From UHGV virus genome UHGV-1629914: DNA of 40,901 bases. One strand, written 5' to 3'. Each line of letters starts with the position of its first letter. The stretch's first letter is position 1. This DNA comes from a virus. The translations under genes were made by a program, and so were the position numbers. Positions 18,696-39,323 of this stretch are shown one piece after another. The notes under the pieces are model-generated. The model was not told where the DNA came from. It saw only the letters and a list, made by a program, of their open reading frames with translations, and searched no databases.

Positions 18696-19664
18696 TTAGT
18701 CAAGCCAATGCAGCATATTCTCGTCATCAAAACGAGATTCAAGCTCAGCTGTTGTAATGAATGCAAGTTTGTTCAGCATATACTGCTGCAATTCACGTTT
18801 GCGAATTGATTCAAATCTGACAAATGTTTCAGGCACTTCAAGTTCGCCATCAGCATCATATGTTGCAACAGACGTGTCAACATTGATGTTATGAATCTTT
18901 TCACATGACACTCTGTACTTTGTCAAGTCAAAGCCTGGCATGCCATCATTACGAGGCAGCAAACTCCACATAGCAAAGTTTTCTACAGCTTCAGCAACAA
19001 ATGCAAGAGCTTCATGCATGTCAACACTGTAGTCTTCTATAAGATTTGCGTATAGTGTAGCTACAATGTTTTGATGTGTCGCAAGGTCAAGCTTATTGCT
19101 AATTGCATGCTCAAAAATGTCTTTGAAGTTCTCATACATAGTGAAGTTCTTCAAGACTAGCCGTTGTAATGCTGTGCGGTCTTCAAGAGCTGCGTATGCA
19201 GTGTCATCATGCATTGCAGAAGCCGCTGCTTGCTGAGCATTCAGTACAACTGATACGTCATGAATAACAAATTTTGAGTCAATCAGCACTGACACTGCAA
19301 TAAACGGTGCAACAGACTTTGAGTCTTTTTGAGCAAAGTCAATTTCGATGTGAAATGAATTGCCTTGTCGCGATTGCACTGAATGATAAATGTCGTAGTC
19401 ATTAACATACAACTTAAAGTGTTGCTTAATTGCATCATTGACTGCATTGATGCCTGCATCGTAAATGTTGCCAATCACTTCAAGTGCACGAGTGTTAAGT
19501 GTATGCGCAAGAAATGCTACATTTTGATAGTTGACGAGTTTGTGAGACAAATCAGTCGTGTTGTTAAGTTGTCTCATCAAATCATGCAGTGCATCGTATG
19601 ACAATTTGATGTCATCTAATGTGTCGCACTCATGTATTGCGTTAATTTGCTGTGCCAGAGTCAT
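18696..19664 (-). CDS. hypothetical protein (322 aa)
   Basis: ORF-track frame in operon orientation. Confidence 0.55.
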   Translation of the reverse strand: MTLAQQINAIHECDTLDDIKLSYDALHDLMRQLNNTTDLSHKLVNYQNVAFLAHTLNTRALEVIGNIYDAGINAVNDAIKQHFKLYVNDYDIYHSVQSRQGNSFHIEIDFAQKDSKSVAPFIAVSVLIDSKFVIHDVSVVLNAQQAAASAMHDDTAYAALEDRTALQRLVLKNFTMYENFKDIFEHAISNKLDLATHQNIVATLYANLIEDYSVDMHEALAFVAEAVENFAMWSLLPRNDGMPGFDLTKYRVSCEKIHNINVDTSVATYDADGELEVPETFVRFESIRKRELQQYMLNKLAFITTAELESRFDDENMLHWLD

Positions 19665-19908
19665 TTTGTGTATGTTCTTGATTTGCTTGTTCTGCTAAAT
19701 TGTCTATAAAAGCTTTGAGCAATGTAATGATTGTTGTTAGCAACTGAATTTGAAACAATACAATGCTAAACACTACAATTGCTACAATGCAAATTGAAAT
19801 GAAGAGCATATTGATGTCAAATTTGTTTGCTATCAATGTTTGCAGCCAAGTTATGACTGCAAACATTGAAATCAGTATGAATGTTTTGTGCTGTGATAAC
19901 GATTTCAT
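19642..19908 (-). CDS. small membrane protein (88 aa)
   Basis: Two hydrophobic segments (FILISMFAVITWL and ICIVAIVVFSIVLF); ATGA overlap at 19905-19908. Confidence 0.4.
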   Translation of the reverse strand: MKSLSQHKTFILISMFAVITWLQTLIANKFDINMLFISICIVAIVVFSIVLFQIQLLTTIITLLKAFIDNLAEQANQEHTQNDSGTAN

Positions 19909-20624
19909 TTGAAATGTATGGATGTTGGATTAGTGTCGGTCATTCTAACATGCCAGTCATAAATGAACCATCTTGCGAGGTCGTCATTTTTGATGTTATG
20001 AGTTTTGACATACTGTTCAGGACCTAATGACTCGCCGGTTTCAGGATTGACTGCGAAGTGGGATTCATCTACATTAGTAGACTTGTTTTTGATGTTTGAG
20101 ATTCGGAGCTTTGTATGCAGTTCAGTGCCGTCAGATTGTAGTGTTTTGACATAGAATGCAGTTTTTGTTGTTGCTTCATTGTCAAGCCATACTCCAAACT
20201 TAACTCCATGTGATTTCCAATATGCATTGTCAGCATCCCTGATTGCTTTGAAGTTCGGGTCATCAAGCCAAGGCTTGAAGACGTATACAGCATGTTGTTC
20301 TTTTCGAGTGATTTCGCCTTTGCCTTCACAAACTGTATGATACAGCCGCATTGCAGTTTCTTCATCAAAATAGTAAGTCAGATTGCCTGGCTTATCGAAT
20401 GTGCCAAGCTGTTGACCATCGATTACGAGAATGAATGTGTAATGCGAATCCTTGAAGAACTCTACTCGTACAGGTTGTTTGTGCTGTCTGCTGTTAAGCA
20501 GTCTGTCAATTGTAATGACTGCCCAGTTGGTGCCTGTCTTTGTTTTGTTGCCATGAAACAGTTCAGGATATGAAACTGTGTAAGGCAATGCTTTGTACTT
20601 CCAATGTTCATTAAAGCTTTTCAT
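19905..20624 (-). CDS. hypothetical protein (239 aa)
   Basis: ORF-track frame preceded by the repeat- and promoter-rich intergenic region 20625-20975. Confidence 0.55.
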   Translation of the reverse strand: MKSFNEHWKYKALPYTVSYPELFHGNKTKTGTNWAVITIDRLLNSRQHKQPVRVEFFKDSHYTFILVIDGQQLGTFDKPGNLTYYFDEETAMRLYHTVCEGKGEITRKEQHAVYVFKPWLDDPNFKAIRDADNAYWKSHGVKFGVWLDNEATTKTAFYVKTLQSDGTELHTKLRISNIKNKSTNVDESHFAVNPETGESLGPEQYVKTHNIKNDDLARWFIYDWHVRMTDTNPTSIHFK

Positions 20625-20646
20625 ATGTAGAGATTTTTGTAGTTTG

Positions 20647-20700
20647 TATCAATTGCATTCTATATCAATTGCATTCTATATCAATTGCATCTTGTATCAA
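20647..20700. repeat. 16-bp direct tandem repeat, about 3.4 copies (TATCAATTGCATTCTA)
   Basis: Two exact copies, one variant copy and a partial, each containing the palindrome CAATTG, in the 5' leader of gene 19905..20624. Confidence 0.85.
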
Positions 20701-20723
20701 ATACATTATATTGATATATGATA

Positions 20724-20754
20724 ATTGTACTACAAAAATCCCAAATTTGCACAC
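20724..20754 (-). promoter_or_regulatory. class A promoter-like motif
   Basis: Coding strand reads GTGTGCAAATTTGGGATTTTTGTAGTACAAT. Confidence 0.45.
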
Positions 20755-20797
20755 TTTGATAATCAAAAGTGCAAACAAAATTCAAAGTTATATTGTA

Positions 20798-20829
20798 CAT
20801 CATAAAGTGCAAATTTGCACTTTATGATG
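20798..20829. repeat. 32-bp perfect palindrome CATCATAAAGTGCAAATTTGCACTTTATGATG
   Basis: Exact reverse-complement symmetry checked base by base; contains GTGCAAATTTGCAC, the core of the class A motif. Confidence 0.85.
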
Positions 20830-20842
20830 CTAAAATGTTGCC

Positions 20843-20871
20843 ATTGTACAACGCTTTGCGCTATTTTGCAC
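20843..20871 (-). promoter_or_regulatory. class A promoter-like motif (second copy in the same intergenic region)
   Basis: Coding strand reads GTGCAAAATAGCGCAAAGCGTTGTACAAT. Confidence 0.45.
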
Positions 20872-20975
20872 AAAGCAGCATGTTAAAATGTAACCATTTA
20901 TAACGCTGCAAATGTCTGCATAAAATAAGCAGCTTAGCAATCTAAGCTGCTGTCATTGTATGCATGCAGTCACTG

Positions 20976-21461
20976 TCATTTGTAGTGCTCAGTTATGTAT
21001 GCTGAGCATAGCAATACAACTGATATGCAAATGACAATGTATGTTGGTGTAATCAGTGTCACATTAAATAGCAATGCAGTCAATGCACATACTGTTACTG
21101 ATATGAGTGTTGAAATGAATGCTGCATATGTACTAAACTTGCTTTTGAATAGACGCTCAATGATGTACGTTGTCGCAACAGACAGTAAGACTACACATGC
21201 AAATAACAACAGCCAAGTTGAGTTTGACGTTGTCGGCTCTTCAATAAATTGCAATGTTGCAGATGGCACTTCAACGTTGTTTGGCGCTTGTAAAGTGCCA
21301 CTCACTGCATCTGCATACATCACAGTTAAGTAGTGTCGTTGAATTTCTGCTGCGTCTACTTTATAGATTCTATGCCATGCAACATCTGATATGATGTATG
21401 TTGCAGCCATAAATGCGGCAATGCATAGCATATAAGAGCCAAACTTTGCAATCGGTTTCAT
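20976..21461 (-). CDS. multi-pass membrane protein (about 160 aa)
   Basis: Several hydrophobic segments. The ORF-track start at 21509 is a TTG inside a terminator hairpin, so the start was moved to the internal ATG (MKPIAKFG). Confidence 0.45.
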   Translation of the reverse strand: MKPIAKFGSYMLCIAAFMAATYIISDVAWHRIYKVDAAEIQRHYLTVMYADAVSGTLQAPNNVEVPSATLQFIEEPTTSNSTWLLLFACVVLLSVATTYIIERLFKSKFSTYAAFISTLISVTVCALTALLFNVTLITPTYIVICISVVLLCSAYITEHYK

Positions 21462-21491
21462 GCAAATATATTTTTGTTTGTATATGTACAT

Positions 21492-21525
21492 AAAAGAGCA
21501 AGTTCTCAATGTGGAGAACTTGCTC
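21492..21525 (-). terminator. intrinsic terminator (12-bp perfect stem plus T-run)
   Basis: GAGCAAGTTCTC / GAGAACTTGCTC stem with a 6-nt loop, followed on the minus strand by TTTTATG. Confidence 0.55.
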
Positions 21526-21866
21526 AGCTGACCTGTTGCCAGGTGAAAGCGTGGTGCAGCACCTTGTGCTGCAATGGCTATGCTGCCATCGCCATAACGG
21601 GCTGAGCATTGCCCAGCATCATTACACGACCAGCTGCGTTAAGCATACGCTTTGCTTTGTTGAAAAATTTGCCAGTTATTGGCTATACACATCTGTTCGT
21701 ACACGTTCATAAGCCGTCAAATACCTGTCACCCCCAATGCTTGGACAGTTGTCAGTCAGTTGTCCAGCTGACTGCAGTCTTTCTGAGTGTATCAAGTTCA
21801 GCGATTCTGCATCTAAAATGGCAATGGTTCAAAATGTGGAGGTGCCGCCATCGAAGGCGGGTCCGT
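21526..21866 (-). ncRNA. candidate circularly permuted (two-piece) tmRNA, ssrA-like
   Basis: (1) T-arm-like hairpin CCGCC-TTCGAT-GGCGG followed by CACCTCC plus A at 21860-21837. (2) About 100 nt downstream, GGGGGTG (21735-21729) pairs with CACCTCC over 7/7 positions with G3-U70 and discriminator A. (3) GGGGGUGACAGGUAUUUGACGGC resembles the conserved tmRNA 5' region. (4) A short frame ends ...GNAQPVMAMAA-UAG, followed by a hairpin. (5) About 48% GC locally. (6) Terminator at 21492-21525. Confidence 0.45.
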
Positions 21867-21876
21867 GCAAACTACG

Positions 21877-22707
21877 TTACGACTTCTTGCTTTCGCAACT
21901 TGTCGACATGTATGGGTTTATATTGTGAGTATTACAAAAATCTTTATACCATGCAATAAAGTCTGCAATTTGCTGTTTACATAAGTGCTTAAATTTATGC
22001 GCATCCCAATATTGAATACGATACACAGTGTAACCTATCGATGACATAAATATATCGCGCTTAGTATCTCGTTCAATGTGTTCTGGATATCTATGCTGTT
22101 TGCCGTCAATTTCAAGGTCTACATTGCCAGGCAATCTAAAATCAAGAAAATATACGCCATGTGCAGACGAATCATAATCTCGCTTATTTATACGATATTG
22201 AAACTCATATGCAATATGCTCAATGTCAAGTACACCTTTCCAATATGATTCTGCAAATGTTATAGTATTTCTTGCAGCCCACGGCTTATTTCGGCCATCC
22301 TCAAAAGATTTACGAACTTTATCACCTATCTTTTTACGAGTATTTTCTGAATGTCGTATATTATGACCAGCAGCAAACCATTTGTTATTGGCTTTATAAG
22401 TTTCATCGGCAAATAATTGTTTCATTCTATTTGACTGACGCTTACGTGCTGCAGAAGACCATTTGCCTTTGCCACCCTTACTTTCCTGATATTGACGTTT
22501 TTGTTCTGCACGTGTAGGCACTTTATGCGCACGTGCTAACTTATTATGTTTAGAACGTCCAGCAGCAACAAATGCTGCGTTCATTCTTTTACGTGTCTCA
22601 GGATGTTTTTTGTGATAATTGTTTTGCAACATTTGAATGTGCACACCAATTGCAACAAAATCTACCGCTGCCATATGTGCCATCATGTTCTTTTCCACAA
22701 TTTTCAC
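21877..22707 (-). CDS. freestanding homing-endonuclease-like protein (NUMOD3-like motifs plus C-terminal Vsr/DUF559-like PD-(D/E)xK-type domain)
   Basis: 276 aa with HPETRKRM and HSENTRKKIGDK (NUMOD3-like) and C-terminal VDLEIDGKQH ... GYTVYRIQYW resembling the Vsr/DUF559 core; sits between the tRNA cluster and the tmRNA candidate. Confidence 0.55.
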   Translation of the reverse strand: MKIVEKNMMAHMAAVDFVAIGVHIQMLQNNYHKKHPETRKRMNAAFVAAGRSKHNKLARAHKVPTRAEQKRQYQESKGGKGKWSSAARKRQSNRMKQLFADETYKANNKWFAAGHNIRHSENTRKKIGDKVRKSFEDGRNKPWAARNTITFAESYWKGVLDIEHIAYEFQYRINKRDYDSSAHGVYFLDFRLPGNVDLEIDGKQHRYPEHIERDTKRDIFMSSIGYTVYRIQYWDAHKFKHLCKQQIADFIAWYKDFCNTHNINPYMSTSCESKKS

Positions 22708-22811: not shown

Positions 22812-22889
22812 TGCCAAACACTGCAATATTTGACAAAAGTGCCAACATCAATCTACGTTCAATTGCAGTTGAATTAGTAGATATCGTTG

Positions 22890-22973
22890 AGCCAGTGGTC
22901 AGATTCGAACTGACGTGAGGCAATGCCTACCGGGTTACAAATCCGGTGGAGTCGACCGCTGTCCCACACTGGC
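22890..22973 (-). tRNA. class II (long variable arm) tRNA, anticodon ambiguous: loop UUUGUAA gives UGU by canonical register
   Basis: Perfect 7-bp acceptor GCCAGTG/CACTGGC, D-arm GGA-CAGCGGTCGAC-TCC, anticodon stem CCGGA/CCCGG (one A-C mismatch), variable arm AGGC-ATT-GCCT, T-arm GTCAG-TTCGAAT-CTGAC; 84 nt, no encoded CCA. Confidence 0.6.
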
Positions 22974-23044
22974 ATAAAGTCGTTGGGCCATTGCAACCCA
23001 AACCTATCATCTTTGCCTAACCAAAGATGCAAGCGCTCTCTTAC

Positions 23045-23116
23045 ACCACGACTTGTAGCCGAACTTGGAGTCGAACCAAGCTTTCGAGAATGAAAATCTC
23101 GCGTCCTAACCGATAG
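23045..23116 (-). tRNA. tRNA-Glu (anticodon UUC)
   Basis: D-arm GTCT-ATCGGTTA-GGAC, anticodon arm CGAGA-TTTTCAT-TCTCG, T-arm CTTGG-TTCGACT-CCAAG; acceptor GGCCGTT/TTCGGCT has two U-U mismatches. Confidence 0.6.
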
Positions 23117-23314
23117 ACGAAACGGCCAAGAGCAGTTCAAGTCTGCAGCATTGAACTGCGGAAGCAATGCCTGTACGGGCAGCAAATTGTGCAGATACAG
23201 CGACATTGCAAAATCACACCGAACCAAGTTTGTGCTTTCGAATATCAATTTGTATTGACCGCAGTCATTATACTTGGCACCAATGACTACTGATGTAAAA
23301 ATCGGTGTGTTACG

Positions 23315-23399
23315 CGGAGAGTAAGGGATTCGAACCCCTGGTACGTTGCCGTACAGTGGTTTTCAAGACCACCGCCATCGACCGCTCGGCCAACTCTCC
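23315..23399 (-). tRNA. tRNA-Ser (anticodon UGA), class II
   Basis: Perfect acceptor GGAGAGT/ACTCTCC, D-loop GAGCGGTCGAT, anticodon arm GTGGT-CTTGAAA-ACCAC, variable arm GTACG-GCAA-CGTAC, T-loop TTCGAAT. Confidence 0.8.
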
Positions 23400-23592
23400 G
23401 TAAAACATTGCATAAGCATTCTTATCTCTTGATGAGACCAAGTAGCTAATTTGGCAAGTTTGTTATATCTATCGTGACTGCTGCAGTTTGTTTGTCACTC
23501 AATACACAAAACTTTCGAACATTCATTGACAGCACTGCAATATCGCTTTTTAAGCTCAGCCATCAATGTATTTATGCAATGTATAACAATTC

Positions 23593-23674
23593 GTAGCCAA
23601 ACCGGGACTTGAACCCAGACTCCTAATGGAACAACATTTTGAGTGTTGCGTGTCTACCAATTCCACCATTTGGC
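23593..23674 (-). tRNA. tRNA-Leu (anticodon CAA), class II
   Basis: Acceptor GGCCAAA/TTTGGCT, anticodon arm CAACA-CTCAAAA-TGTTG, long variable arm, T-arm CTGGG-TTCAAGT-CCCGG. Confidence 0.8.
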
Positions 23675-23778
23675 CATTTGCAAATGCAAGCTGTTTCACA
23701 ACTGTTTGCATTTGCTGTCGTAAATTCGTATTGTTTAACTTCTAAAACAGAATTCATCTAATTAAAACCAGAGAATTG

Positions 23779-23851
23779 TAGGGAAGACCGGACTCGAACC
23801 GACGACCACTTGCTCCCAAAGCAAGCATGCTACCAACTGCACCACTTCCCT
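23779..23851 (-). tRNA. tRNA-Pro (anticodon UGG)
   Basis: Perfect acceptor AGGGAAG/CTTCCCT, D-loop AGTTGGTA, anticodon arm CTTGC-TTTGGGA-GCAAG, T-loop TTCGAGT. Confidence 0.8.
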
Positions 23852-23857
23852 AAATTG

Positions 23858-23929
23858 TTGAGACGGCAGAATTCGAATCTGCATTACAGGAACCAAAATC
23901 CTGGGTCTTAACCATTGGACGACGTCTCA
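23858..23929 (-). tRNA. tRNA-Gln (anticodon UUG)
   Basis: Perfect acceptor TGAGACG/CGTCTCA, anticodon arm CAGGA-TTTTGGT-TCCTG, T-arm GCAGA-TTCGAAT-TCTGC. Confidence 0.75.
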
Positions 23930-24061
23930 ATCAAATGCAAATCTTTGTAAGGCGTTTGCAATCCTGTAATTTGTTTATGTATTTTTGTTTATTTAGTAAT
24001 TATATGAATATATTACTACAAACATTTATGATTTGCACAATATACTGCAACTTTGTATCAC

Positions 24062-35265: not shown

Positions 35266-38200
35266 TCAGTTACATGCTGAATGTCCACAGTTGGTGCATC
35301 GAACACAGCCATCAAACTTGACCATATCACCACCACATTCAGGGCACTTTGCATACATTTTTGAGCCATCTTGAATATGCAGTTTCAATGCACGACCAAT
35401 TGCTTTGCAGAATGTTCCGACAGATGCAAAGCTTTTTGCAGTTTGGTCGACAATTTCGCCGAGGTCAATACCATTGCGAAGCATCGTTGAGTACAGTCGA
35501 GTAATTGTCTGCTGCTCATCTGAACCAAGACGTTCTGAGATATTGTCATAGTGCTGCAAGAATGACAAATTATCACTAAGCTTGTAGTGTTTCTTATCAG
35601 TCTTTGTGATTGTCGTTTGTTCAATGCCTTGCAACTTGTCGAATTCATCTTTGTCAAGTTCAAATGCAAAGATTTCATAAGGTCGACCGTCATCACAGCC
35701 TACAAGAATACACCACTTGCGCTTATACACTGACACGCAATACACTGCAGCAGGCAATACTGGTTTTCGTTTTGAGCGATGACCAGATTGCAAGATGTGC
35801 GACTTGTCTTTTGACTGCTTGTCATCTTTTACGAGAACACCTGCACGTGAGCCGTCTCGATAAATTGTGCAGCCCTTGCAGCCAGATTTCCATGCAGTCA
35901 TATAAATTTCACGAACGAGTTCTTTTGTTGCAGAGTTTGGAATGTTGACCGTTACAGAAATTGACGAGTCAATGTATTTTTGCAATGCACCTTGCAGTTT
36001 CACCTTGCCAATCCAGTCAACATCTTCAGTAGTTGCCTTGTAGTATGGTGATTGAACAAGCAACTCATCAATGACTGCTTGCGGAGCATTTGATAACCAA
36101 GCTTTGATGCGAGACATTTCTGCTTCTGACCATTCAATGCCAGTATCTTTGACAAGAGTAAATTTGCCATCGCCAAGCTGCACTCGTTTACAAATCCACT
36201 GCATCAATGGATAATGAACTACAGCATATTCAATGAACTTATCGCCAGTAGTCTCATCAATGAAGTTGATGTCAGCTTCATTATCAACTGCAGTAGGCTT
36301 TCGACGACGTTTGTGCAGTGGCATAAAGACGGGCTCAATACCAGACGTCGTCTGAGTCATCAAAGCTGTAGTGCCTGTTGGCGCAATTGTGGTCGTGTTG
36401 ATGTTTCGACGACCAAATTGCTGATAAGTTTTGATGTGCTCATCATCAATCAGTTCAGATAGCATACGCTGGACGAACTTTGACTGCACATCTGTGTCAT
36501 AGTCAAATATTGCAAATGAGCCGCGAATCTTTGCCAAGTCAATTGATGCTTCATAAGTAGCCTTTACAAGCCATTGCTGCATAGTGACTGCGAAGTCAAT
36601 TGACTCTTGTGAACCATAGCGTAAGCCAAGCATCGCCATTGCATCGCCAAGTGCAAGGAAGCCCATACCATATCGACGAGTATTTGTCAGTTTGTCATAG
36701 ACTTTGTGCCACAAGTCAAGTTCAGTCTTTTTGATGTCAAAGTCTTCTTTGTCTGACCGTACCTTTGCAATGATTCGTTGCACTGCTTCAATTTCAAGCT
36801 GTACAAGGTCATCCATGATGACTGCGCAATCATACGTGTCTTTATAGAATGTCTCAAAGTCAAATGACGCATCAGCAGTCCAAGGATTAAGCACGTATGC
36901 AGTCAAATTGCGATGTGACAAAATGCAGCTTGCATATGCTGCAAGAGGTTGTTCACCACAATTTAATGTATTGACGACTTGCTTGTCATTGACTGCAATA
37001 AAGAAATTGTGGAAGTCTTCTACTGTACCATTGTACACATCTGCTTTGTTCATGTGACGTGTTGCGACAACTTTGACAATTGCATCACCAGTAGTGTCAA
37101 TGTCTGCATATTTGCTGTAGTCACCTAACGCTGCGCAAGCATCACAGCAATACGCTTGTTCACGATTGTCATAAGAAACTTCGAATTCTTTACCACAATA
37201 TTCGCATCGTTTAATGACTGTGTTTCGTTCTGTTTTTACAAGTTCGTCAGTCTTCAATGCAATTGATAGCTTATCTGTGCTTGGCATATCAATTGCCCAC
37301 AATGAGTCATTTGTTGCAAGGTCAATTGCATACTTGAAATCGCCATTAGCAAGTCTAAACTCATGATTTGCTGTACAATTGATGACATGACCATCATCAA
37401 GCACAATCTGAATGATTTGTGCATTGTGTGCAGTCAATCTTGGTCGACGCATTGTACGCACAACAAGCTTGCCATTAGCGTCAAGACAATACACTGGAAT
37501 GTCTTCGCCGTTATCAGCAAGCTCTTTGAATGTCTTCAAACCTGAGCCATCAGCAACAAGCACTTTTGTATCACCTGTGAAGCATGGATTTGTTGAGCGC
37601 TCTTCATACATTTTGCCATATGCTTTCGAGTTCGACTCTTCCATAATGCGGTCCCAGAAGAACACACCAGGTTCTGCAGATGCCCATACATTATCAACAA
37701 TTTTGTCGAACAATGCTTTTGCATCTGATGTCTTATGCAGCTCTTGGCCATCAGAGCCACGCCAAACATGCTCAAACTGTTGTTCTGCAAGTACTGCACG
37801 CATAAATGCATCAGTAAGCTTGATAGAAATGTTTGCGCCTGTGATTTTCGTCAAGTCTTTTTTTGCGTCAATGAACTTATCTGCGTCAGGATGCTCAATT
37901 GACAATGACAACATCAATGCACCACGCCTGCCATTTTGTGCAACTTCTTTTGTTGATGTTGAAAAGCGTTCCATAAATGACACTACACCAGAAGTTGTAA
38001 CAGCACTGTTATGCACTTCTACGCCTTCTGGGCGAATATGTGACAAATCATGGCCAACACCACCACGACGCTTCATCAACTGAACTTGCTCTTCATCTGT
38101 TTTGAAGATGCCGCCATATGAGTCTGCATCATTGCCTATTACGTAGCAATTTGACATTGATGTGTAACCGCCAAGACCAATACCAGCCATTGGAGAACCA

Positions 38201-38487
38201 CCAAGTACAAATCGCTTAAATGGCTCAAGCAAATATGCAAGTCGCTCTTTTGACAATACACGTTTGCCTGTCTGTTCTTCAAATTGTGATTCTATACGGT
38301 CAAATTCATTGACCCAGCGTTCATGCATGTCAGACAATGAGTGTTCATACAGATTGTCTTTGTCGTGATGCAAGTATTTTGACATGCATATGTCAGCAGC
38401 CATTGAATCACCTGTAAATTCATGTGTCAGTGCAGTATGCACTTCGGCATATTCAGGCGACCCAATTTGAATGGGATGTTTTGTCAT
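35266..38487 (-). CDS. ribonucleotide reductase catalytic subunit (class II-like NPCGEQ site) interrupted by an intein
   Basis: NPC / GEQPL active-site motif split by an inserted block; C-terminal Cys cluster CPECGG ... CVRCTNCGHSAC. Start taken at the internal ATG (MTKHPIQ), about 45 nt downstream of a class A motif. Confidence 0.75.
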   Translation of the reverse strand: MTKHPIQIGSPEYAEVHTALTHEFTGDSMAADICMSKYLHHDKDNLYEHSLSDMHERWVNEFDRIESQFEEQTGKRVLSKERLAYLLEPFKRFVLGGSPMAGIGLGGYTSMSNCYVIGNDADSYGGIFKTDEEQVQLMKRRGGVGHDLSHIRPEGVEVHNSAVTTSGVVSFMERFSTSTKEVAQNGRRGALMLSLSIEHPDADKFIDAKKDLTKITGANISIKLTDAFMRAVLAEQQFEHVWRGSDGQELHKTSDAKALFDKIVDNVWASAEPGVFFWDRIMEESNSKAYGKMYEERSTNPCFTGDTKVLVADGSGLKTFKELADNGEDIPVYCLDANGKLVVRTMRRPRLTAHNAQIIQIVLDDGHVINCTANHEFRLANGDFKYAIDLATNDSLWAIDMPSTDKLSIALKTDELVKTERNTVIKRCEYCGKEFEVSYDNREQAYCCDACAALGDYSKYADIDTTGDAIVKVVATRHMNKADVYNGTVEDFHNFFIAVNDKQVVNTLNCGEQPLAAYASCILSHRNLTAYVLNPWTADASFDFETFYKDTYDCAVIMDDLVQLEIEAVQRIIAKVRSDKEDFDIKKTELDLWHKVYDKLTNTRRYGMGFLALGDAMAMLGLRYGSQESIDFAVTMQQWLVKATYEASIDLAKIRGSFAIFDYDTDVQSKFVQRMLSELIDDEHIKTYQQFGRRNINTTTIAPTGTTALMTQTTSGIEPVFMPLHKRRRKPTAVDNEADINFIDETTGDKFIEYAVVHYPLMQWICKRVQLGDGKFTLVKDTGIEWSEAEMSRIKAWLSNAPQAVIDELLVQSPYYKATTEDVDWIGKVKLQGALQKYIDSSISVTVNIPNSATKELVREIYMTAWKSGCKGCTIYRDGSRAGVLVKDDKQSKDKSHILQSGHRSKRKPVLPAAVYCVSVYKRKWCILVGCDDGRPYEIFAFELDKDEFDKLQGIEQTTITKTDKKHYKLSDNLSFLQHYDNISERLGSDEQQTITRLYSTMLRNGIDLGEIVDQTAKSFASVGTFCKAIGRALKLHIQDGSKMYAKCPECGGDMVKFDGCVRCTNCGHSACN
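36961..37584 (-). mobile_element. intein (about 208 aa) within the ribonucleotide reductase
   Basis: Begins CFTGDTKVLV (intein block A) right after ...STNP; ends VEDFHNFFIAVNDKQVVNTLN with terminal Asn followed by extein Cys (CGEQPL). Carries a CEYCGKEF ... CCDAC zinc-ribbon-like insert; no LAGLIDADG or HNH block seen. Confidence 0.6.
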
Positions 38488-38528
38488 TGTAACAGTGCAT
38501 TTAAGTGTTTTAACTGTTTTATGTATAA

Positions 38529-38556
38529 ATTGTACAACAATGCGCAAAATTTTGCA
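38529..38556 (-). promoter_or_regulatory. class A promoter-like motif
   Basis: Coding strand reads TGCAAAATTTTGCGCATTGTTGTACAAT, upstream of the reductase ATG. Confidence 0.5.
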
Positions 38557-39237: not shown

Positions 39238-39323
39238 TGTAGTAGAGGTTAAAATATATTAATATATAATAATTATATTACAAAGTTGTCAGATTTGCAC
39301 CAGAATGTATAACAAGTTCACAC

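What the first reader, a model, noticed from the sequence alone, without database searches (positions are those of the whole stretch)
20625..20975. Intergenic hub with 16-bp tandem repeats, a 32-bp perfect palindrome and two promoter-like motifs
This 350-bp AT-rich stretch has no credible ORF. It contains 3.4 copies of TATCAATTGCATTCTA (20647-20700), a 32-bp perfect palindrome (20798-20829) whose core is GTGCAAATTTGCAC, and two class A motifs (20724-20754, 20843-20871). Iteron-like repeats plus a large palindrome in an AT-rich region could mark a replication origin or a heavily regulated operator.
Basis: seen in the sequence. Interest (0 to 1): 0.5.

Follow-up and report, generated by a model that had tools for sequence, protein, structure and literature searches.

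The report
Tandem phage promoters with palindrome and variable repeat
This gap between two phage genes is a transcription control region with a terminator, three same-direction promoters, a highly conserved 32-bp palindrome over the middle promoter and a 16-bp repeat that some strains lack, and nothing marks it as a replication origin.

Summary
The interpretation needs revising.

- **Context:** The window is the replication-gene module of an uncultured phage of about 175 kb, probably infecting Bacteroidota. Every supported gene lies on the minus strand.
- **Promoters:** The "class A motif" is a phage promoter, GTGCAAA-N15-GTACAAT, read on the minus strand. The window has 12 copies, each just upstream of a minus-strand ORF or the tRNA cluster. 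The region holds three, not two: P3, P2 and P1. All fire toward the 239-aa gene at 20624-19905, and a conserved terminator sits upstream of them.
- **Palindrome:** The 32-bp palindrome covers P2's -35 box and spacer. It belongs to a 129-bp core that is identical in three diverged strains compared in full. A fourth strain differs only by one compensatory double change that keeps the palindrome perfect. Flanking genes differ by 0.4-7%.
- **Repeats:** The 16-bp repeats lie in the 5' leader. Nine further contigs of the same phage species carry 0, 2 or 6 copies against 3 here. Three zero-copy strains encode an identical downstream protein. Distant syntenic relatives lack both the repeats and the palindrome.
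- **Origin signal:** The window shows no GC-skew turning point.

Best reading: an ordinary, strongly constrained promoter and operator region with a dispensable variable repeat. An R-loop origin of the T4 type cannot be excluded.

The parts
20976..21461 (-). Upstream gene: a small membrane protein of about 161 aa. Its stop codon at 20976-20978 bounds the region on the right.
   Evidence: The translation is hydrophobic. It is 45% identical (E 3e-26) to the ORF at the same position in relative L003. The plus-strand ORF 20995-21333 is therefore a shadow ORF.
20928..20951 (-). Intrinsic terminator of the upstream gene: AGCAGCTTAG-ATTG-CTAAGCTGCT followed by TATTTTAT.
   Evidence: The terminator scan finds it. 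Across strains the stem is invariant while the loop varies (ATTG, CAAT, CACT). Distant relatives L003 and L011 carry a different hairpin plus T-run at the same position.
20846..20898 (-). A 53-bp strain-variable segment that carries promoter P3. It is bounded by 19-bp direct repeats at 20827-20845 and 20880-20898, so the exact boundaries are ambiguous.
   Evidence: Repeat family D3. The segment is present in the window, L002 and L024, and absent in L001 and L019.
20843..20871 (-). Promoter P3: GTGCAAAATAGCGCAAAGCGTTGTACAAT.
   Evidence: Motif scans. Across strains the substitutions fall only in the spacer, and both boxes are invariant.
20798..20829 (.). The perfect 32-bp palindrome, with core GTGCAAA|TTTGCAC. 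It covers about 10 bp upstream of P2's -35 box, the box itself and the P2 spacer up to the -10 element. It is a candidate operator.
   Evidence: It is complete in all five strains whose contigs cover it, and present as far as three further contigs reach. L002 has a compensatory T:A to C:G change at the paired positions 20803/20824 that keeps it perfect.
20792..20820 (-). Promoter P2: GTGCAAATTTGCACTTTATGATGTACAAT.
20746..20775 (.). A second, imperfect 30-bp palindrome, TTTGCAC-ACTTTGATAATCAAAA-GTGCAAA. It pairs P1's -35 box with an inverted box upstream. Its centre lies 53 bp from the centre of the perfect palindrome.
   Evidence: Read from the sequence. Inverted repeats I1 and I7. Heptamer positions. 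Invariant across strains.
20724..20752 (-). Promoter P1: GTGCAAATTTGGGATTTTTGTAGTACAAT. It is the promoter nearest the gene, and its position is conserved in distant relatives.
   Evidence: A homologous promoter lies upstream of the homologous gene in L003, L010, L011, L014 and L015.
20701..20829 (-). The hyperconserved 129-bp core: palindrome, P2, second palindrome, P1 and the first transcribed bases.
   Evidence: Mismatches to L001, L019 and L024 are 0/129, and to L002 2/129. The same strains differ at 3-27 of 720 positions in the downstream gene and 12-24 of 325 in the upstream gene.
20647..20710 (.). The 16-bp tandem repeat, a VNTR. On the minus strand the unit reads ATGCAATTGATATAGA. It lies inside the 5' leader between P1 and the start codon.
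   Evidence: Added copies per strain are 0 (L024, L025, L026; L020 and L022 carry a different 13-bp duplication instead), 2 (L002, L019, L021), 3 (the window and L023, which looks like the window's own contig) and 6 (L001).
20625..20717 (-). Inferred 5' leader of the P1 transcript. The start point is inferred, not mapped. It is 23.5% GC.
   Evidence: The distance from the -10 element to the ATG is 99 nt here and 51 nt in zero-copy strains. Other class-A promoters sit roughly 25-70 nt from their start codons. The RNA fold is not significant, z = -1.7.
19905..20624 (-). The downstream gene that the promoters drive: a 239-aa protein of unknown function. It is the first gene of the block that leads into the topoisomerase II A-subunit gene.

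Best explanation
The region is the transcription control region of the operon that starts at 20624 on the minus strand.

Read in the direction of transcription (right to left) it contains:
1. an intrinsic terminator that ends the upstream membrane-protein gene;
2. three tandem promoters, P3, P2 and P1, of one phage-specific class, GTGCAAA-N15-GTACAAT. This resembles a -35 box, a 17-bp spacer and a TAcAAT -10 box;
3. two dyad-symmetric elements built from inverted copies of the -35 box. One is a perfect 32-bp palindrome over P2. The other is an imperfect 30-bp palindrome over and upstream of P1's -35 box, with its centre 53 bp (five helical turns) away;
4. an AT-rich 5' leader.

Inferred mechanism: a dimeric DNA-binding protein, not yet identified, binds the dyads. 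Either it is a repressor, or it is the factor that reads the GTGCAAA box. Its binding gates access of RNA polymerase to P2 and P1 and blocks transcripts from P3 and from terminator read-through.

The 16-bp repeats are a slippage-generated, strain-variable VNTR inside the leader. They are dispensable, so they are not iterons. At most they tune expression.

Shown here: the promoter class and its orientation, the terminator, the conservation pattern and the copy-number polymorphism. Inferred: protein binding to the dyads, the transcription start points and any regulatory effect.
For: - **Motif statistics.** There are 7 exact hits against 0.32 expected, all with the same spacing and on the same strand. 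With up to 2 mismatches and the fixed 15-nt spacing there are 12 minus-strand sites. Each lies just upstream of a minus-strand ORF or the tRNA cluster.
- **The class is conserved.** In L011 (31% protein identity) it occurs upstream of the same genes. It is also upstream of the homologous gene in L003, L010, L014 and L015.
- **P3 boxes are constrained.** Strain substitutions fall only in the P3 spacer.
- **Terminator.** The stem is conserved and the loop is variable.
- **The 129-bp core is conserved.** It shows 0, 0, 0 and 2 mismatches, where flanking divergence of 4.1-4.6% in three of the four strains would predict 5-6 each.
- **Compensatory change.** L002's two changes are at paired positions and keep the palindrome perfect.
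- **Uniqueness.** It is by far the longest palindrome in the window. Its 20-bp core occurs once per 175-kb genome of the two related contigs.
- **VNTR.** Copies range from 0 to 6, and zero-copy strains encode a protein identical to the window's.
Against: - No DNA-binding protein has been identified. The operon's proteins have no recognisable DNA-binding domain, and the 239-aa protein's fold matches nothing.
- The dyad GTGC-N6-GCAC occurs nowhere else in the window, so no regulon supports an operator role.
- The palindrome is absent from relatives at 64% protein identity or less, so any such regulation is specific to this lineage.
- The single compensatory change could come from hairpin-templated mutation rather than selection.
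- The conserved core could reflect a recent recombinational sweep.
- Transcription start points are not mapped.
- The host's RNA polymerase specificity is unknown. Bacteroidota normally use TTTG / TAnnTTTG promoters.
Confidence: 0.65

Rival explanations
1. The region is a replication origin. One form would be the T4 oriF/oriG type, where a transcript from a phage promoter forms a persistent R-loop in the AT-rich DNA downstream and primes leading-strand synthesis. The other would be the T4 oriE or plasmid type, where evenly spaced direct repeats bind an initiator.
For: - The form matches: promoters are followed directly by a 23.5% GC stretch.
- The direct repeats are evenly spaced.
- The phage has a T4-like replisome: clamp loader, topoisomerase II, ligase and RNR.
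- T4 oriF/G need only a promoter plus an AT-rich unwinding element of no particular sequence, and T4 oriE has 12-nt direct repeats (PMC3016281).
- The strongly conserved core shows that the DNA is functional.
Against: - The repeats are dispensable: 0 copies in strains with an identical downstream gene.
- The repeats are absent from all more distant syntenic relatives.
- The leader is only the 3rd or 4th least stable stretch in the window. It is no different from the AT-rich leaders after other class-A promoters.
- Cumulative GC skew has no turning point here, and there is no switch in transcription direction within 20 kb on either side.
- No initiator-like gene lies next to the region.
- Even in T4, no link between the oriE repeats and origin activity has been established.
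Confidence: 0.1
2. The palindrome is two back-to-back overlapping promoters that share the inverted -35 boxes. P2 fires leftward. A mirror promoter, GTGCAAA-N16-CTAAAAT, fires rightward and makes an antisense RNA across P3, the terminator and the end of the membrane-protein gene. The two compete for polymerase.
For: - The motif scan picks up the plus-strand site at 20807-20836 with 2 mismatches.
- A TAAAAT -10-like hexamer is kept in 4 of the 5 strains that cover it.
- Symmetry of the -35 box and spacer would follow naturally from mirrored promoters.
Against: - The rightward -10 is lost in L019, where it reads CTGCAAAAT after a deletion.
- It lacks the TTGTwG stretch found upstream of the -10 box in the class consensus, and its spacing is one base off.
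- There is no plus-strand gene, no Rfam RNA and no good plus-strand terminator downstream.
- All 12 other sites of the class are on the minus strand.
Confidence: 0.1
3. The palindrome acts as RNA. In transcripts from P3, or in read-through from the upstream gene, it forms a 15-bp hairpin. This could be an RNase III-type processing site, a 5' stabiliser or an attenuator ahead of the operon.
For: - The RNA hairpin has a free energy of -21.7 kcal/mol, z = -4.3.
- A compensatory change preserves the pairing.
- P3's inferred start lies only about 7 nt upstream of the hairpin.
Against: - Two strains, L001 and L019, keep the perfect palindrome but lack P3. There it would be transcribed only by read-through past a good terminator.
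- The hairpin coincides exactly with P2's -35 box and spacer, which points to action at the DNA level.
- No U-tract follows the hairpin.
- There is no Rfam match.
Confidence: 0.08
4. The 16-bp repeat is a functional tuning element and not neutral slippage. Each unit adds a mini-ORF (ATG CAA TTG ATA TAG) and 16 nt of leader. In a host with sigma-70-type recognition, each adjacent pair also adds a TTGATA-N16-TAGAAT promoter. Copy number would then set the expression level of the downstream operon in each strain.
For: - Copy number varies from 0 to 6 among otherwise near-identical strains.
- Two sigma-70-like sites scoring 10 of 12 arise from the repeats.
- The mini-ORF can be read directly from the sequence.
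- A different duplication occupies the same spot in L020 and L022, so this spot is repeatedly remodelled.
Against: - There is no conservation beyond this species-level cluster.
- The units are perfectly identical, which indicates recent slippage.
- The leader RNA is not significantly structured.
- The likely host group (Bacteroidota) does not use TTGACA/TATAAT promoters.
- No expression data exist.
Confidence: 0.15

Closest known systems
Tandem early/middle promoter clusters of large lytic phages, such as T7 A1-A2-A3 and the T4 early and MotA-dependent middle promoters
   Same: Several closely spaced promoters fire in the same direction ahead of DNA-metabolism genes. The motif is bipartite with fixed spacing, a sigma-70-like TAnnAT -10 box and an invariant upstream box that recurs throughout the replication module.
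   Different: The upstream box GTGCAAA is neither the E. coli -35 box nor the T4 MotA box. The polymerase or factor that reads it is unknown. The host is probably a Bacteroidota, whose own promoters look different. Nothing here has been mapped experimentally.
Palindromic operators that overlap promoters and bind dimeric repressors, such as the lambda and P22 operators or LexA boxes
   Same: Dyad symmetry is centred on the -35 box and spacer of a promoter. A second, weaker dyad lies five helical turns away. Conservation is extreme, with one symmetry-preserving double substitution.
   Different: At 32 bp and perfect, it is longer than typical operators. No cognate protein is known and no other sites occur in the window. 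It does not match the Bacteroidetes LexA motifs GGA-N5-TCC or CTAA-N5-TTAG (PMC8565304).
[quoted passage not shown]
   Same: A phage promoter is followed by an AT-rich tract and evenly spaced direct repeats, in a phage with a T4-like replisome.
   Different: The repeats are dispensable and not conserved. The region is not at a transcription-divergence or skew-shift point. Its AT-richness is no greater than that of other promoter leaders in the window.
Variable-number tandem repeats (VNTRs) in non-coding DNA
   Same: Perfect head-to-tail units differ in copy number between otherwise near-identical genomes (0, 2, 3 and 6 copies). Assemblies break nearby.
   Different: It sits within about 25-90 nt upstream of a start codon inside a 5' leader, so an effect on expression is possible but untested.

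Membership tests
Iteron-type replication origin (plasmid, lambda or T4 oriE type) | Several evenly spaced direct repeats | tested here: met
   Period 16, with 2.8 perfect copies and about 4 in all.
Iteron-type replication origin (plasmid, lambda or T4 oriE type) | The repeats are retained in close relatives, because an essential initiator-binding array should be kept | tested here: not met
   Three strains with an identical downstream protein have 0 copies. Other strains have 2, 3 or 6. Relatives at 31-64% protein identity have none.
Iteron-type replication origin (plasmid, lambda or T4 oriE type) | A cognate initiator (Rep-like) gene lies next to the repeats | tested here: not met
Iteron-type replication origin (plasmid, lambda or T4 oriE type) | A GC-skew or strand-bias turning point at the site | tested here: not met
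   Cumulative skew falls steadily over 40.9 kb, with only a 3-kb local reversal at 19-22 kb. Every supported gene is on one strand. Only this window was analysed for skew, not the whole 175-kb genome.
Iteron-type replication origin (plasmid, lambda or T4 oriE type) | Replication actually starts here | not testable with these tools
   This needs marker-frequency sequencing or a plasmid replication assay.
T4 oriF/oriG-type R-loop origin | A phage promoter followed directly by an A+T-rich unwinding element (PMC3016281) | tested here: inconclusive
   The form is present: P1 plus a 23.5% GC leader. At least five other class-A promoters in the window have equally or more unstable leaders, so the feature does not discriminate.
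Phage promoter class (bipartite -35/-10-like) | Two conserved boxes at fixed spacing, far more frequent than chance, on the coding strand only | tested here: met
   7 exact hits against 0.32 expected, and 12 sites with up to 2 mismatches, all on the minus strand with a 15-nt spacing.
Phage promoter class (bipartite -35/-10-like) | Located just upstream of genes, and conserved at the same places in relatives | tested here: met
   Each site lies just upstream of a minus-strand ORF or the tRNA cluster. The same class lies upstream of homologous genes in L011 and others.
Phage promoter class (bipartite -35/-10-like) | The boxes are conserved while the spacer is free to vary | tested here: met
   In P3, three strains differ at 5 spacer positions and at none of the box positions.
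Phage promoter class (bipartite -35/-10-like) | Mapped transcription start points | not testable with these tools
   No RNA data are available.
Intrinsic (rho-independent) terminator | A GC-rich stem-loop plus a T-run just after a stop codon, with the structure conserved | tested here: met
   A 10-bp stem with 5 GC pairs and the tail TATTTTAT, starting 25 nt after the stop codon. The stem is invariant and the loop varies across strains. Analogous hairpins occur in L003 and L011.
Palindromic operator for a dimeric regulator | Dyad symmetry that overlaps core promoter elements and is under constraint | tested here: met
   The palindrome spans P2's -35 box and spacer. There are 0 substitutions in three strains compared in full, and one compensatory pair in L002.
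Palindromic operator for a dimeric regulator | An identified cognate DNA-binding protein, or further sites that form a regulon | tested here: not met
   No DNA-binding-domain protein was found among the ORFs scanned. GTGC-N6-GCAC occurs only once in the window. The rest of the 175-kb genome was not examined for this.
Bacteroidetes LexA box | The motif GGA-N5-TCC or CTAA-N5-TTAG (PMC8565304) | tested here: not met
   The palindrome contains neither motif.
Known structured RNA (Rfam) | A match to a covariance model at the gathering score | tested here: not met
   Only miRNA-hairpin noise, at about 20 bits against a gathering score of 88-89.
VNTR | Copy-number polymorphism of identical head-to-tail units among near-identical genomes | tested here: met
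   0, 2, 3 and 6 added units among ten contigs of one phage species.

The most novel reading that the evidence does not exclude
The hyperconserved 129-bp core and its AT-rich leader could be an R-loop-type replication origin, like T4 oriF/oriG, in an uncultured family of large Bacteroidota phages. The perfect palindrome would act as a cruciform or protein-gated switch, and the variable repeat as an expandable unwinding element. This would give the first candidate origin for this phage group, and one that can be tested directly.
Probability: 0.08. Interest if true: 0.55.

Novelty: new member of a known kind. Interest (0 to 1): 0.3.

Why it matters
The finding has modest importance.

- It defines a promoter class, GTGCAAA-N15-GTACAAT, for an uncultured family of phages of about 150-175 kb related distantly to Chryseobacterium and Lak phages. 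This gives a practical handle for annotating their transcription units.
- It picks out one 129-bp non-coding core that is more conserved than the surrounding genes. That core is a good target for finding the phage's regulator.
- It shows that the eye-catching "iterons" are a dispensable strain-variable repeat. Tandem repeats plus a palindrome in AT-rich DNA should therefore not be read as an origin without comparing strains.

Tried and rejected
1. **Nucleotide search of cultured phages.** Megablast of 18-24 kb against 50,697 phage records found only tRNA matches.
2. **Palindrome core in IMG/VR.** The search found the two sister genomes and two unrelated chance hits, L005 and L006.
3. **Function of the downstream 239-aa protein.**
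   - Pfam and PHROGs gave nothing.
   - An exhaustive HMMER search found only 8 relatives, none with a known function.
   - The idea of an autoregulator or initiator gene therefore has no support.
4. **Rfam and RNA folding of the leader.** Neither gave a signal.
5. **Duplex-stability profile as a test for an unwinding element.** The leader is AT-rich but not exceptional.
6. **Bacteroidota host-type promoter consensus, TTTG-N19-21-TAnnTTTG.** There are 4 hits against 1.2 expected, reached by 4 of 100 shuffles. One hit is embedded in P2. This is too weak to build on.
7. **Reading the class A motif on the plus strand.** Rejected because no supported gene lies on the plus strand and every site precedes a minus-strand gene or the tRNA cluster.
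8. **Bacteroidetes LexA box.** The motifs do not match.
9. **Other copies of the 16-bp unit in the window.** There are three loose matches inside coding regions, which is not above chance.
10. **Contigs ending inside the palindrome as a possible genome terminus.** Rejected as an assembly artefact. I assume these Logan contigs were built with k = 31. On that assumption the shared 30 nt at two of the three contig starts equals k-1.
11. **PHROG scan of ten more ORFs for regulators.** Only one family of unknown function was found.

Full report
**Context**

The 40.9-kb window is the DNA-replication module of an uncultured phage. Its ORFs include:
- both topoisomerase II subunits;
- a gp44-like clamp loader;
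- an NAD-dependent ligase;
- a 5'-3' exonuclease;
- a ribonucleotide reductase that carries an intein;
- six tRNA genes.

Every ORF supported by a family match or a homologue lies on the minus strand. Two IMG/VR contigs of 175.6 and 174.6 kb carry the same locus, with 98% protein identity for the downstream gene. The nearest cultured phages by the topoisomerase A subunit are Chryseobacterium phages MA9V-1 and MA9V-2 at 39% identity, followed by Sphingomonas phage PAU and the Prevotella Lak phages. The genes lack Shine-Dalgarno sequences. Together these point to a Bacteroidota host, which is an inference.

- TRF reports TATCAATTGCATTCTA with period 16 and 2.8 perfect copies at 20647-20690. The array decays to 20711.
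- The 32-bp perfect palindrome at 20798-20829 is confirmed. The next longest in the window is 14 bp, and the longest in 200 simulated windows was 24 bp.
- The stretch is 30.8% GC against 40.2% for the window, and its longest ORF is 52 aa.

**The class A motif is a minus-strand promoter**

- The pattern TTGTAC-N(10-25)-TTGCAC occurs 7 times against 0.32 expected. Every hit has N = 16 and lies on the plus strand.
- Read on the coding (minus) strand, the motif is GTGCAAA-N15-GTACAAT. This amounts to a -35-like box, a 17-bp spacer and a TAcAAT -10 box.
- Allowing two mismatches at the fixed spacing gives 12 minus-strand sites. Each lies just upstream of a minus-strand ORF, or of the tRNA cluster in the case of the site at 24038. 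An AT-rich "CATATA" start region follows most of them.
- The genes served include both topoisomerase subunits, the RNR and the clamp loader.
- The class is conserved in L011, a syntenic relative at 31% protein identity. L011 has three sites in 12.7 kb, all upstream of genes.
All point at the 239-aa gene that starts at 20624.

**Anatomy, read right to left**

1. The upstream gene encodes a membrane protein. It is conserved at 45% identity in L003, which shows that the plus-strand ORF 20995-21333 is a shadow ORF.
2. An intrinsic terminator follows at 20951-20928. Its stem is invariant across strains and its loop varies.
3. A 53-bp strain-variable segment carries P3.
4. The perfect palindrome covers P2's -35 box and spacer.
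5. An imperfect 30-bp palindrome at 20746-20775 pairs P1's -35 box with an inverted box. Its centre lies 53 bp from the centre of the first palindrome.
6. P1 follows.
7. A 99-nt AT-rich leader contains the 16-bp repeats and runs to the ATG.

**Strain comparison**

This comparison decides between the two readings. Nine further contigs of the same phage species were recovered, plus L023, which appears to be the window's own contig.

*The repeats are dispensable.*
- Relative to the shortest allele, the leader has 0 added units in L024, L025 and L026. The downstream protein in these three is identical to the window's.
- L020 and L022 also have 0 units, but carry an unrelated 13-bp duplication at the same spot.
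- L002, L019 and L021 have 2 units, the window has 3, and L001 has 6.

*The core is more conserved than the genes around it.*
- The 129 bp from the palindrome through P1 to the first transcribed bases (20829-20701) shows 0 mismatches in L001, L019 and L024, and 2 in L002.
- The same strains differ at 3-27 of 720 positions in the downstream gene and 12-24 of 325 in the upstream gene.
- For L001, L002 and L019, the flanking divergence of 4.1-4.6% predicts 5-6 changes in 129 bp. For L024 the flanks are only 1.4% diverged, so its zero mismatches carry little weight.
- L002's two changes sit at the paired positions 20803 and 20824. They convert T:A to C:G and keep the palindrome perfect.
- In P3, strain differences fall only in the spacer.

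**Distant relatives**

Homologues of the 239-aa protein at 28-64% identity lie between the two topoisomerase II subunit genes in related phages. The contigs that extend far enough upstream show one or two promoters of the same class ahead of the gene, and L003 and L011 also show a terminator. None has the palindrome or the 16-bp array. The promoter and terminator layout is therefore ancestral to the family. The palindrome is specific to this lineage, and the repeats are specific to some strains within it.

**Tests of the origin reading**

- Cumulative GC skew falls steadily across the window. There is only a 3-kb local reversal at 19-22 kb and no turning point at the region.
- There is no switch in transcription direction. 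Active T4 origins tend to lie near such switches (PMC3016281).
- The leader is only the 3rd or 4th least stable duplex stretch in the window. The leaders behind the promoters at 39300, 24038 and 31060 are equal or less stable.
- No initiator-like protein is nearby. The 239-aa and 322-aa proteins have no family hits.
- A T4 oriF/G-type origin needs only a promoter and an AT-rich tract. This form cannot be excluded, but nothing distinguishes this promoter from the others on that criterion.

**Other checks**

- Rfam finds nothing.
- The leader RNA is not significantly structured, with z = -1.7.
- The palindrome would form a strong hairpin as RNA (-21.7 kcal/mol) or as DNA (-14.2 kcal/mol). However, two strains keep it while lacking P3, which favours a role at the DNA level.
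- It does not match the Bacteroidetes LexA motifs.
- The dyad GTGC-N6-GCAC occurs only once in the window.

**Conclusion**

The region is an ordinary but strongly constrained control region. It combines a terminator, three tandem phage promoters and dyad-symmetric operator-like elements. A dispensable VNTR lies in its leader.

Shown: the promoter class, the terminator, the conservation pattern and the copy-number variation. Inferred: protein binding to the dyads and any regulatory effect.

It survives only as a low-probability R-loop variant.

Noticed in passing
window, minus strand; 5' G of the motif at 39300, 38557, 31060, 28577, 24038, 18486, 9435, 5076 and 2014 (plus the three in the region): There are twelve copies of the promoter GTGCAAA-N15-GTACAAT. 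Each lies just upstream of a minus-strand ORF or the tRNA cluster, and most are followed by an AT-rich "CATATA" start region. The same class occurs in relative L011 (31% protein identity).
   Followed up: partly
window 20647-20700, minus strand: Each full 16-nt repeat unit reads ATG CAA TTG ATA TAG, a mini-ORF encoding MQLI. The last unit opens a 15-codon upstream ORF that overlaps the main start codon out of frame. Zero-copy strains have an equivalent upstream ORF. L020 and L022 do not.
   Followed up: no
window 20783-20813, minus strand: A perfect match to the Bacteroidota host promoter consensus, TTTG-N19-TAACTTTG, is embedded in P2 inside the hyperconserved core. The window has 4 such matches against 1.2 expected.
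   Followed up: partly
window 20746-20775: A second, imperfect 30-bp palindrome pairs P1's -35 box with an inverted GTGCAAA box. P3 carries its own dyad, TTGTGC-AAAATA-GCACAA, in strains L002 and L024.
   Followed up: partly
L020, L022 and L026, position 1: Three Logan contigs start inside the palindrome. L020 and L022 start with its last 30 nt and L026 with its last 29. This probably reflects a break in a k = 31 assembly, an assumption about how these contigs were built. It is an artefact and not a genome end.
   Followed up: yes
L020 and L022, leader about 30-55 nt upstream of the ATG: At the exact spot where other strains carry the 16-bp array, these strains have an unrelated 13-bp duplication, TTAAGATAACACG / TTAAGATACAAAC. 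The site is a hotspot for duplication.
   Followed up: no
L010 215-245: A distant relative has its own two-copy tandem duplication of 15-16 bp, CATTTTGCAATGAAAG / CATTTTCAATGAAAG. It lies upstream of the single promoter of the homologous gene.
   Followed up: no
window 19905-20624 (minus strand), with homologues in L011 and L015: A family of proteins of about 240 aa is conserved between the two topoisomerase II subunit genes in this phage group. It has no Pfam or PHROG match and no PDB fold match.
   Followed up: partly
window 35266-38547 (minus strand): The ribonucleotide reductase large subunit carries an intein (an Intein_splicing hit at residues 338-517).
   Followed up: no
window 21877-22707 (minus strand) and 22889-23929: An endonuclease-like ORF (DUF559 / REase_MTES_1575) sits beside a cluster of six tRNA genes (Thr, Glu, Ser, Leu, Pro, Gln). 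The cluster is served by the class-A promoter at 24038.
   Followed up: no
window about 19000-22000: GC skew is locally reversed: positive on the plus strand here, negative across the rest of the window. The reversal covers the 239-aa, 88-aa and membrane-protein genes, and its cause was not determined.
   Followed up: partly
window 20995-21333 (plus strand); L023 792-1130: The public gene call on the matching ENA contig picks this plus-strand 112-aa shadow ORF and not the conserved minus-strand membrane protein.
   Followed up: yes
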